From an uncultured delta proteobacterium (GTDB lineage Bacteria; Myxococcota_A; Polyangia; Fen-1088), in the NCBI GenBank assembly GCA_963796685.1, contig CAWCMR010000025.1:1536001-1600000 (forward strand): 64,000 nucleotides of DNA. The letters run 5' to 3'. Position numbers and translations under genes: made by a program. The first letter of the stretch is position 1. Each line of letters begins with the position of its first letter. Below are positions 5,745 through 5,995 of this stretch, piece after piece. The notes beneath the pieces were generated by a model. It was not told the origin of the DNA and did no database searches. It saw nothing but the letters and a program-made list of their open reading frames with translations.

Positions 5745-5995
5745 AGGACTTCTGCTCTTGGTATGCCCAGCCTTGCGGAGTATGCGGGCTCGAGGCCCTC
5801 TCATCTGTTCGGGCTGCTTGTGAAAGTCGACACGACGACCCTCGCTCACCCACGGTCTTTGTGACCTGAGGGGCATCGGTCTGTCGTGCCGTTGAATCTC
5901 GTCGTGCTCCTTCGCCTTTGGGGGCGAGCGTAGCCCAGCTTTGCTGGGCGAAGCGAGGGGGGACCGGGGGACTGCGAGCGAGAGCGAGCCAGTCC
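5745..5995 (-). ncRNA. Putative IS110 bridge RNA (target-binding and donor-binding loops)
   Basis: Guides match the insertion target (5845-5851, 5869-5876) and the IS junction (5802-5808, 5772-5775); each pair flanks a hairpin inside a closing stem. Ends are approximate. Confidence 0.8.

What the first reader, a model, noticed from the sequence alone, without database searches (positions are those of the whole stretch)
5745..5900. IS110 bridge RNA with all four guides readable and programmed against the host REP
Seen on the minus strand. Target loop: GAUGCCCCU (5869-5877), hairpin GGUC-ACAAA-GACC, then GGGUGAG (5845-5851), closed by CACGAC/GTCGTG. The insertion site reads ACTACCC-CT-CACCC. 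Donor loop: ACAGAUG (5802-5808), hairpin, then CAAG (5772-5775), closed by CAGCC/GGCTG. The predicted circle junction is ACAGATG-CT-TGTAT. The layout matches the IS621 LTG/RTG/LDG/RDG arrangement. The actual insertion tolerated left-guide mismatches, and the left end (~280 nt) has extra hairpins. This is a candidate programmable recombinase from a GC-rich host.
Basis: partly seen in the sequence, partly recalled or inferred. Interest (0 to 1): 0.75.

Follow-up and report, generated by a model that had tools for sequence, protein, structure and literature searches.

The report
IS110 bridge RNA aimed at REP repeats
This is a real but ordinary member of a known class: a small jumping gene of the IS110 family whose own non-coding RNA carries guide sequences that match its insertion site in a host repeat and its own ends.

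Summary
Window 4756-6010 (minus strand) is a 1,253-bp IS110-family element flanked by CT cores. It lies in a 186-bp tandem repeat and has 7 copies in this genome.

Its 279-nt left end holds a two-loop RNA upstream of the recombinase gene:
- LTG GAUGCCCCU is at 5877-5869 and RTG GGGUGAG at 5851-5845. They fit the insertion sites: GCCC-CT in 6 of 7 copies and CT-CACCC in 7 of 7.
- LDG ACAGAUG is at 5808-5802. The split RDG is AUA (5783-5781) plus CAAG (5775-5772). They fit the element's ends.

In relatives from other phyla the same RNA lies upstream of the gene, its helices covary, and the guides covary with each element's own flanks (0 of 10,000 permutations reach the observed match). The recombinase keeps the five IS621 catalytic residues. 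The circle junction would form a TTGACT-17-TATCTT promoter.

Verdict: a bridge RNA, a new member of a known kind. Transcription and activity are untested.

Extras: left-end scars end at the LTG-coding DNA and are re-targeted, and the 5' leader is a structured module that also occurs alone.

The parts
4756..6010 (-). IS110-group insertion sequence: 1,253-bp body (6008..4758) with a CT core at each junction (6010-6009 and 4757-4756)
   Evidence: An uninterrupted repeat unit reads GACTACCCCTCACCC. There are six full 100%-identical copies plus one whose left end is interrupted.
4779..5729 (-). Recombinase gene: GTG start at 5729-5727, AAGGAG ribosome-binding site at 5738-5733, TGA stop at 4781-4779, 316 aa
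   Evidence: Pfam DEDD_Tnp_IS110 2.8e-23 and Transposase_20 9.7e-17. PDB ISCro4 2.9e-31 and IS621 1.2e-26. D12, E56, D98, D101 and S238 align with the IS621 catalytic residues.
5757..5914 (-). Bridge RNA core (target-binding loop plus donor-binding loop) as matched by covariance model R1
   Evidence: 126.2 bits, E 2.8e-30, the only hit in the window.
5828..5891 (-). Target-binding loop: closing helix 5891-5878 / 5841-5828, LTG GAUGCCCCU 5877-5869, inner hairpin 5866-5863 / 5857-5854, RTG GGGUGAG 5851-5845, handshake-type C at 5844
   Evidence: Flanks of the 7 copies. Covariation with flanks. Handshake position.
5765..5814 (-). Donor-binding loop: closing helix GCCC 5814-5811 / GGGC 5768-5765, LDG ACAGAUG 5808-5802 (followed by AG, which does not match the core), inner hairpin 5798-5795 / 5789-5786, RDG AUA 5783-5781 plus CAAG 5775-5772, handshake-type G at 5771
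   Evidence: The LDG 7-mer is found exactly in the right end of 61 of 68 relatives.
5928..6006 (-). 5' leader module of the left end: -10-like TATCTT 6006-6001, stem-loop 1 at 5999-5965, stem-loop 2 at 5954-5928
   Evidence: Alignment of 4 IS-borne and 8 stand-alone copies: 21 predicted pairs, 10 with compensatory changes.
4771..4776 (-). -35 hexamer TTGACT in the 21-nt right end. In a circle it lies 17 nt from TATCTT (6006-6001).
   Evidence: Read. The same TTGnnn-17-TATnnn layout is found in 33 of 36 distinct relatives.
4176..4757 (.). 186-bp tandem repeat, part to the right of the element (3.1 units): the insertion target
6009..7311 (.). 186-bp tandem repeat, part to the left of the element (7.0 units)
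   Evidence: Together the two parts hold nine unoccupied GTGCCCCTCACCC sites on the + strand.
7315..7396 (-). Degenerate solo left-end scar, IS positions 58-140 (96% identity)
9472..9528 (-). The other half of the same solo left-end scar, IS positions 1-57, separated from the first half by a group II intron
61156..61169 (+). Unoccupied perfect 14-nt match to LTG plus RTG (GATGCCCCTCACCC), next to a REP-like hairpin

Best explanation
The 5745-5900 region is the core of a bridge RNA encoded in the left end of an IS110-group insertion sequence (window 4756-6010, minus strand).

Inferred working cycle, by analogy with IS621:
1. The element excises as a circle.
2. Joining the right end to the left end forms a sigma-70 promoter, TTGACT-17-TATCTT.
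3. That promoter drives a roughly 250-nt RNA made of a structured 5' leader, a target-binding loop and a donor-binding loop.
4. The DEDD/Ser recombinase binds this RNA.
5. The donor loop pairs with the circle junction ACAGATG-CT-TGTAT.
6. The target loop pairs with (GAT)GCCC-CT-CACCC, a motif in a REP-like host repeat.
7. Recombination occurs at the CT core.

Shown here: the sequence anatomy, copy number, insertion sites, structural covariation, guide-to-flank covariation in relatives, and conserved catalytic residues.

Inferred only: transcription, the ends of the RNA, RNA-protein binding, and catalysis.
For: 1. Element and enzyme. The boundaries are defined against an intact repeat unit. There are 7 copies at 100% identity. 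Pfam assigns the IS110 domains. The closest solved structures are the bridge recombinases ISCro4 (E 2.9e-31) and IS621 (E 1.2e-26), with all five catalytic residues aligned.

2. Guides against this genome's own sites. The right flank is CT|CACCC in 7 of 7 copies, the exact complement of the RTG. The left flank is GCCC|CT in 6 of 7 copies and ACCC|CT in the window copy. The LDG equals the last 7 nt of the right end. The RDG parts AUA and CAAG are complementary to CT-TGTAT.

3. Structure. Of 24 consensus pairs, 18 carry compensatory changes. 91.6% of cells are paired against 74.8% in shuffles (0 of 500 shuffles reach it), and slid controls give 32-44%. 31 of 431 cells are G-U pairs. On the other strand these would be A-C mismatches, which favours the recombinase strand.

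4. Relatives. Model R1 hits 76 of 81 sources, always upstream of the recombinase gene and on its strand.
- RTG against the right flank: 133 of 155 positions match across 31 distinct RTGs. Permuted pairings give a mean of 45.6 (sd 6.1), and 0 of 10,000 reach the observed value.
- LTG against the left flank: 167 of 238 positions match across 34 distinct LTGs. Permuted pairings give a mean of 107.9 (sd 5.8), and 0 of 10,000 reach the observed value.
- The LDG 7-mer is found exactly near the end of the gene in 61 of 68 loci, followed by CT or TT in 59.

5. Handshake-type positions covary. The target-loop position against donor position 7 gives C-G in 63 rows and U-A in 3. The donor-loop position against target position 7 is pairable in 38 of 42 rows.

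6. Junction promoter. A TTGnnn-17-TATnnn layout sits at the same place in 33 of 36 distinct relatives.

7. Natural re-targeting. In a same-genus genome, two full copies and one scar sit exactly at the CT after GATGCCC of a left-end scar. That site matches the LTG at 7 of 7 non-core positions.

8. The guide definitions are taken from Durrant 2024 (PMC11208160, passages read).
Against: - There is no direct evidence of the RNA's strand, ends or abundance. Metatranscriptome contigs from 3 runs overlap the region, but contigs cannot show strand or ends, DNA carry-over is possible, and the recombinase gene is covered too.
- Natural sites match only the 3-4 core-proximal LT positions, 4-5 of 7 in all.
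- Nine sites in the same tandem array match 6 of 7 LT positions and are empty. None of the 7 copies lies in any of the 29 TGCCCCTCACCC sites. With so few copies this is not significant (my estimate, P about 0.15).
- The two LDG nucleotides that face the core are AG, not CU.
- The RDG bulge is 5 nt, longer than the 2-3 nt seen in relatives.
- The assembly is 88.6% complete with 6.48% contamination.
- Covariation with flanks cannot by itself separate RNA guides from DNA-level sites. Only the helix covariation and the G-U pairs argue for RNA.
Confidence: 0.93

Rival explanations
1. The functional product is an sRNA made from the opposite (+) strand, like Rfam sX15. On this view the complementarity to target and ends is incidental, or serves antisense control of the recombinase mRNA leader.
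For: - Rfam sX15 gives a weak + strand match at 5750-5901: 29.4 bits, E 0.018.
- sX15 scores 107-149 bits in 4 of 5 Xanthomonas and Stenotrophomonas relatives and 46.9 bits in the fifth. All five hits are on the strand opposite the recombinase gene and overlap the R1 hit.
- In Xanthomonas, both sX15 and its complement asX7 were detected on Northern blots (PMC3300014, passages read).
Against: - The window match is below the gathering score (29.4 against 55).
- 31 G-U cells in the helices would be A-C mismatches on the + strand.
- The guide polarity is that of IS621 on the recombinase strand: LTG and LDG read like the top strand, and RTG and RDG are complementary to it.
- An antisense RNA could exist alongside the bridge RNA without replacing it.
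Confidence: 0.03
2. The left end is only a structured mRNA leader and promoter region. The internal copies of the target and end sequences would act as DNA sites for the recombinase, like sub-terminal repeats, and not as RNA guides.
For: - The region lies directly upstream of the start codon and ribosome-binding site.
- Covariation between guides and flanks is equally expected for DNA-DNA recognition.
- No RNA ends were mapped.
Against: - Four helices covary, with G-U pairs, as expected for a folded RNA.
- The homologous recombinases IS621 and ISCro4 have been solved, and for IS621 the RNA was necessary for recombination in vitro (PMC11208160, passages read).
- The architecture matches the published one position by position, including the handshake positions.
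Confidence: 0.03
3. The element is a decayed or inactive copy, so the guides are fossils without present function.
For: Many truncated left-end scars and internal-deletion derivatives exist. No direct evidence of activity was obtained.
Against: - Seven copies are 100% identical over up to 1,255 bp, with an intact 316-aa reading frame and intact catalytic residues.
- A same-genus genome holds copies at about 99% identity at different sites.
- Both points indicate recent transposition.
Confidence: 0.05

Closest known systems
IS621 (Escherichia coli) bridge RNA and recombinase (Durrant 2024, Hiraizumi 2024)
   Same: - An IS110-group layout: long left end (279 nt), short right end (21 nt), CT core.
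- A two-loop RNA with LTG and RTG in the first loop and LDG and a split RDG in the second.
- The same guide polarity and the same handshake-type positions.
- A junction promoter.
- The DEDD plus Ser catalytic residues, and a REP-type target.
- A donor of the form ACAGnnG-CT-TGTAT. That the IS621 donor has this form is recalled, not checked in a call.
   Different: - Protein similarity is only distant (phmmer E 1.2e-26).
- The RTG is 7 nt and fully matched in all copies, whereas the IS621 analysis treated a four-base RTG.
- The RDG bulge is 5 nt.
- About 115 nt of extra structured 5' leader precede the target loop.
- The LDG nucleotides that face the core are AG.
- The host is GC-rich (64.6% GC).
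ISCro4 transposase (PDB 9t56)
   Same: It is the best solved-structure match (E 2.9e-31, residues 8-308), with aligned catalytic residues.
   Different: Similarity is distant.
ISPpu10 and ISPpu9 of Pseudomonas putida (IS110 family, REP-targeted)
   Same: They are multi-copy IS110-family elements inserted in REP sequences. ISPpu10 forms a hybrid junction promoter. ISPpu9 leaves stand-alone non-coding modules in the genome (PMC12288879, abstract read).
   Different: The ISPpu9 module (ssr9) lies downstream of the transposase gene and moves as its own circle. Here the stand-alone pieces are left-end fragments that stop at the LTG-coding DNA and lack a donor left half.
Rfam RF02234 sX15 (Xanthomonadaceae sRNA)
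   Same: It covers the same locus in the Xanthomonas and Stenotrophomonas relatives of this element.
   Different: The model is on the opposite strand. The window scores 29.4 bits, below the gathering score of 55, so it is not a member.

Membership tests
IS110-family bridge RNA (IS621 type) | Encoded in the non-coding left end, upstream of and on the same strand as a DEDD/Tnp recombinase gene | tested here: met
   R1 hits lie on the recombinase strand in 76 of 76 cases.
IS110-family bridge RNA (IS621 type) | Two internal loops, each closed by a stem and holding an inner hairpin, supported by covariation | tested here: met
   24 pairs in 4 helices, 18 with compensatory changes, 0 of 500 shuffles reach the observed values.
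IS110-family bridge RNA (IS621 type) | The 5' side of loop 1 (LTG) reads like the top strand of the left target plus the core | tested here: met
   GCCC-CT in 6 of 7 copies and ACCC-CT in the window copy. Only 4-5 of 7 non-core positions match. Covariation across relatives gives 167 of 238 matches against a permuted mean of 107.9, with 0 of 10,000 permutations reaching it.
IS110-family bridge RNA (IS621 type) | The 3' side of loop 1 (RTG) is complementary to the core plus the right target | tested here: met
   CTCACCC in 7 of 7 copies. 133 of 155 matches against a permuted mean of 45.6, with 0 of 10,000 permutations reaching it.
IS110-family bridge RNA (IS621 type) | The 5' side of loop 2 (LDG) reads like the right-end terminus plus the core | tested here: met
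   ACAGATG matches 7 of 7 positions. The exact 7-mer is found in 61 of 68 relatives. The two core-facing nucleotides are AG and do not match CT.
IS110-family bridge RNA (IS621 type) | The 3' side of loop 2 (RDG) is discontinuously complementary to the core plus the left-end terminus | tested here: met
   AUA, then a 5-nt bulge, then CAAG, against CT-TGTAT: 7 of 7. Relatives have AU, a 2-3-nt bulge, then CAAG.
IS110-family bridge RNA (IS621 type) | Handshake guides next to the RTG and RDG that pair with position 7 of the other substrate | tested here: met
   In the window, C5844 faces donor position 7 (G) and G5771 faces target position 7 (C). Across relatives the pairs are C-G in 63 rows and U-A in 3, and 38 of 42 rows are pairable. 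The concept is from PMC11208158 (passages read).
IS110-family bridge RNA (IS621 type) | A sigma-70 promoter rebuilt across the RE-LE junction of the circle | tested here: met
   TTGACT-17-TATCTT by sequence. The same layout is found in 33 of 36 relatives. Promoter activity was not tested.
IS110-family bridge RNA (IS621 type) | The RNA is expressed and is required for, and directs, recombination | not testable with these tools
   Only metatranscriptome contigs overlap the region, without strand or ends.
IS110 group (as opposed to the IS1111 group) | Long left end, short right end, only short sub-terminal repeats | tested here: met
   The left end is 279 nt (6008-5730) and the right end 21 nt (4778-4758). 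The criterion is from PMC11208160.
IS110 recombinase | RuvC-like DEDD motif plus the catalytic Ser of the Tnp domain | tested here: met
   D12, E56, D98, D101 and S238-G239 align with IS621 D11, E60, D102, D105 and S241-G242. The PDB chain numbering is offset by +2.
Rfam RF02234 sX15 | Score at or above the gathering threshold of 55 bits | tested here: not met
   29.4 bits, on the + strand.

The most novel reading that the evidence does not exclude
Because the bridge RNA gene must contain a copy of the left half of its own target, this element carries a built-in self-target. GATGCCC-CT-CA at IS positions 135-145 matches 11 of the 14 guide positions.

In nature this site is used. It gives left-end scars that stop inside the LTG-coding 9-mer, and those scars are hit again to give scar+IS and scar+scar tandems. 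Scars that have lost the CT core persist.

Separately, the roughly 85-nt two-hairpin 5' leader is a module that also lives as an independent structured repeat family in related genera. The bridge RNA of this lineage may therefore be a fusion of a guide core with a captured host or selfish RNA or DNA module.
Probability: 0.45. Interest if true: 0.6.

Novelty: new member of a known kind. Interest (0 to 1): 0.4.

Why it matters
This adds a fully readable bridge recombinase system from a GC-rich (64.6% GC) soil bacterium.
- It has a naturally long, fully matched 7-nt RTG. A preprint discussion (10.64898/2026.08.31.748434, section read) reports that extending the RTG improved specificity in IS621.
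- Its natural target set can be read directly from the genome: 7 insertions among 121 candidate sites.
- It is a reasonable candidate for testing as a programmable recombinase.

The genome record also gives an in-vivo view of off-pathway events at the element's own LTG-coding DNA. These include scars, tandems and small core deletions. They bear on current work on half-match recombination and on how IS110 loci expand.

The strand conflict with Rfam sX15 suggests that one curated sRNA family is the reverse strand of a bridge RNA locus.

Tried and rejected
- Rfam. No family matches the sense strand. There are only sub-threshold hits: sX15 on the opposite strand, and Antizyme_FSE in the tandem repeat (27.8 bits against a gathering score of 40). 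I take the latter to be chance.

- Single-sequence folding of the left end. The z-score is only -2.07, and the minimum-energy fold pairs LTG with RTG. It was not used as evidence; the consensus fold was used instead.

- A regular expression for the donor loop. It found the motif in only 21 of 69 loci, so I replaced it with covariance model R1.

- Boundary finding.
  - The left-end boundary was set by the RDG-derived motif and the right-end boundary by the LDG 7-mer.
  - Seven loci with R1 hits (L048-L052, L055, L089) were not in my coordinate table and were skipped.
  - L021 was dropped because its donor loop was not aligned.
  - L059 and L068 were dropped from the LTG test because each had two candidate motifs.
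  - RTG test: 56 loci had an exact right-end boundary and at least 5 nt of flank. They were collapsed to 31 distinct RTGs, keeping the first occurrence.
  - LTG test: 36 loci were collapsed to 34 distinct LTGs. The best of three registers was taken for both real and permuted pairs.

- R1 gave no hit in 5 of 81 sources. L043, L076, L092 and L094 lack the upstream region. L082 has it but scored nothing at E <= 0.01.

- Metatranscriptome contigs.
  - X15, X16 and X18 have contigs across parts of 5638-5936. X17 has none between 5712 and 5849.
  - Depth is 10-40 times higher over 5896-6033 in X16 and X17. Many of those contigs diverge at 5917-5923, so the peak reflects the widespread leader module and not this RNA.
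  - There is no strand or end information, so none of this counts as expression evidence.
  - Runs listed with small shares were not interpreted.

- Microhomology-mediated deletion was considered as the source of the scars. It fits the two GATGC|TCACCC junctions (L132, L133). It does not explain the clustering of 17 of 21 scar ends within the 9-nt LTG-coding stretch, nor the exact insertions at its CT. I cannot tell aberrant excision from self-insertion followed by homologous collapse.

- The group II intron was considered as an LE-specific invader and rejected. Its 11 copies sit after varied hairpins.

- Literature.
  - A search for 'bridge RNA', 'IS110', 'self-targeting', 'solo', 'remnant' and 'tandem insertion' (at least 3 of 6 terms) gave no title on LTG-coding DNA as a self-target.
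  - In 10.64898/2026.08.14.744561 (passages read), tandem non-coding repeat units next to IS110 genes and half-match boundaries are described, so overlap is possible.
  - A search for 'sX15' plus 'Xanthomonas' listed 3 papers. None is a bridge RNA paper by title.
  - Supplements are closed. The Durrant 2024 supplementary catalogue of predicted bridge RNAs may already list this element or its relatives.

- Tools not used: structure prediction, fold search, complex prediction, the protein database searches and the Atlas. They were not needed.

Full report
**What is there**

On the minus strand, window 6010-4756 holds a 1,253-bp insertion flanked by a CT at each junction. An uninterrupted unit of the surrounding 186-bp tandem repeat reads ...GTGACTACCCCTCACCCGCC.... 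At the element it reads ...GTGACTACCC-CT|TGTATCTT...ACAGATG-CT|CACCCGCC....

The only long reading frame (5729-4779; GTG start, AAGGAG ribosome-binding site) has the two Pfam domains of IS110 transposases: DEDD_Tnp_IS110 at 2.8e-23 and Transposase_20 at 9.7e-17.

The left end is 279 nt and the right end 21 nt. This is the IS110-group layout as described in PMC11208160 (passages read).

**Copies and insertion sites**

The genome is 7.3 Mb in 26 contigs, 88.6% complete. It holds six full copies at 100% identity, plus a seventh whose left end is split by a 2,075-bp insertion.

- The right flank is CT|CACCC in 7 of 7 copies.
- The left flank is GCCC|CT in 6 of 7 copies and ACCC|CT in the window copy.

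GCCCCTCACCC occurs 121 times in the genome against 17.6 expected from base composition. Of these sites, 79 are followed within 90 nt by a GC-rich hairpin motif, against 14 of 5,000 random windows. The 60-nt flanks of one copy recur 49 times (left) and 109 times (right).

**The RNA**

- Read with the published definitions, LTG GAUGCCCCU (5877-5869) equals the top strand of the left target plus the core.
- RTG GGGUGAG (5851-5845) is the exact reverse complement of CT-CACCC.
- LDG ACAGAUG (5808-5802) equals the last 7 nt of the right end.
- The RDG is split. AUA (5783-5781) and CAAG (5775-5772) together complement CT-TGTAT, with a 5-nt bulge between them. The paper describes a discontinuous RDG for IS621 as well.
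- The two LDG nucleotides that should face the core are AG, which do not match CT.

**Structure**

I fetched 80 loci that encode relatives of the recombinase (39-99% identity) from many phyla. A MAFFT alignment of the window with 17 of them gives a consensus fold of four helices. These are a long stem closing the first loop, its inner hairpin, a short stem closing the second loop, and its inner hairpin.

- 18 of 24 pairs carry compensatory changes.
- 91.6% of cells are paired against 74.8% in column shuffles (0 of 500 shuffles reach it). Sliding the 3' partners drops pairing to 32-44%.
- 31 of 431 cells are G-U pairs. On the other strand these would be A-C mismatches, which favours the recombinase strand.

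A covariance model built from this alignment hits 76 of 81 sources, always upstream of the recombinase gene and on its strand. It hits the window once, at 5757-5914, with 126 bits. In the whole genome it hits only the seven IS copies (150 of 3,336 first-look candidates were scored).

**Do the guides track the flanks?**

I set each relative's right boundary by its own LDG 7-mer and its left boundary by its RDG-derived motif. Neither uses the LTG or the RTG.

| Test | Distinct guides | Observed matches | Permuted mean (sd) | Permutations reaching observed |
|---|---|---|---|---|
| RTG against right flank, 5 non-core positions | 31 | 133 of 155 | 45.6 (6.1) | 0 of 10,000 |
| LTG against left flank, 7 non-core positions | 34 | 167 of 238 | 107.9 (5.8) | 0 of 10,000 |

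- Two relatives with a TT core have matching TT-type guides.
- The exact LDG 7-mer lies near the end of the gene in 61 of 68 loci and is followed by CT or TT in 59.
- The nucleotide after the RTG pairs with donor position 7: C-G in 63 rows and U-A in 3.
- The nucleotide after the RDG is pairable with target position 7 in 38 of 42 rows. This is as expected for the handshake guides of IS621 (PMC11208158, passages read).

**Enzyme and promoter**

The closest solved structures are the bridge recombinases ISCro4 (9t56, E 2.9e-31) and IS621 (8wt6, E 1.2e-26). D12, E56, D98, D101 and S238 align with the IS621 catalytic residues D11, E60, D102, D105 and S241.

In a circle, TTGACT (4776-4771) would lie 17 nt from TATCTT (6006-6001). 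The same layout is present in 33 of 36 distinct relatives.

**What is not shown**

No tool here gives the strand, ends or level of the RNA. Metatranscriptome contigs from three runs overlap parts of the region, but they also cover the gene and cannot exclude DNA.

Natural sites match only 4-5 of the 7 non-core LT positions. Nine sites with 6 of 7 matches in the same array are empty. The distal LTG positions therefore seem to contribute little in vivo, or insertion is simply rare.

**Beyond the finding: scars at the LTG-coding DNA**

This genome and a same-genus genome (G002) hold many left-end fragments. By my tally, 17 of 21 end at IS positions 138-143, inside the 9-nt LTG-coding stretch.

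- Several read GATGCCCCT|CACCC, which is a perfect 14-nt target.
- Others have lost 2-4 nt at the core, giving GATGCCC|ACCC, GATGCCCC|ACCC or GATGC|TCACCC.
- In G002, two full copies and one further scar sit exactly at the CT after GATGCCC of such a scar (L127, L128, L129).
- The element's own DNA reads GATGCCC-CT-CA at that place, so it matches the guides at 11 of 14 positions.

I infer that the LTG-coding DNA acts as a built-in self-target. This could happen in aberrant excision, or by self-insertion followed by homologous collapse. I cannot tell which, and two junctions also fit simple microhomology deletion.

Half-match recombination has been reported for IS621 (10.64898/2026.08.31.748434, abstract and Discussion read). 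Tandem non-coding units next to IS110 genes have also been reported (10.64898/2026.08.14.744561, passages read). The passages I read do not name the LTG-coding DNA as the site.

**Beyond the finding: the 5' leader**

IS positions 5-90 form two hairpins. 10 of 21 predicted pairs carry compensatory changes across 4 IS-borne and 8 stand-alone copies.

In other genera of the family the module occurs alone, sometimes in tandem. 20 of 24 such loci have no R1 hit nearby. In this genome it occurs only in IS copies and their scars. Its role is unexplained.

**Comparison and verdict**

Everything that defines an IS621-type bridge RNA at the sequence level is met, so I file it as a member. It differs in four ways:
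- a fully matched 7-nt RTG;
- a longer RDG bulge;
- AG at the core-facing LDG positions;
- a long modular leader.

Such RNAs have been predicted by the thousand, so this is a new member of a known kind. It is of moderate interest as a candidate tool and for the natural record of self-targeting.

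Noticed in passing
window 7397-9471 (+ strand): A group II intron of 2,075 bp. Rfam group-II-D1D4-3 scores 79.7 bits and Intron_gpII 46.6 bits, and a 554-aa reverse-transcriptase reading frame lies at 7676-9340. It sits inside a degenerate solo left end of the IS, between IS positions 57 and 58. The same arrangement interrupts a full IS copy on contig C11. The genome holds 11 intron copies at 99.8% identity or more, each directly after a hairpin, so the intron targets stem-loops in general and not the IS.
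   Followed up: partly
L083, L088, L090, L091, L095 (Xanthomonas and Stenotrophomonas relatives); window 5750-5901 (+): Rfam RF02234 sX15 scores 107-149 bits in four of these loci and 46.9 bits in L083. All hits are on the strand opposite the IS110 recombinase gene and overlap the bridge RNA hit of model R1. The curated sRNA family therefore appears to be the reverse strand of a bridge RNA locus. The 2011 paper reports sX15 and its complement asX7 as both detected.
   Followed up: partly
G000 C25:1109419-1109562, C8:212939-213083, C25:234099-234238; G002 loci L127-L138: Solo left-end scars end inside the LTG-coding 9-mer. Some give a perfect 14-nt target, and others have 2-4 nt deleted at the core. 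Two scar+full-IS tandems and one scar+scar tandem show new insertions exactly at that CT.
   Followed up: partly
window 5928-6006 (-); L104, L107-L109, L117-L121: The roughly 85-nt two-hairpin 5' leader of the left end also exists as a stand-alone repeat family, in places in tandem, in other genera of the same family. No bridge RNA lies next to these copies, and their stems carry compensatory changes. Function unknown.
   Followed up: partly
window 4252-7005 (+ strand, 9 sites): Each unit of the 186-bp tandem array carries GTGCCCCTCACCC on the + strand. This matches the left guide better (6 of 7) than the occupied site does (4 of 7), yet all nine sites are empty.
   Followed up: partly
window 61156-61169 (+): An unoccupied perfect 14-nt match to LTG plus RTG next to a REP-like hairpin. 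It is one of four such sites in the genome, two of which are IS scars.
   Followed up: partly
window 5896-6033: In two soil metatranscriptome runs from one study, summed contig depth over the leader module is 10-40 times that over the rest of the element. Many contigs diverge at 5917-5923. This suggests the module is abundant in other contexts in soil RNA libraries.
   Followed up: no
L131 (G002), L146 (G001): Internal-deletion derivatives of the IS keep both ends (left end 1-143 or 1-127 joined to the last 43-57 nt) but lack the gene and most of the RNA. They look like potential non-autonomous mini-elements.
   Followed up: no
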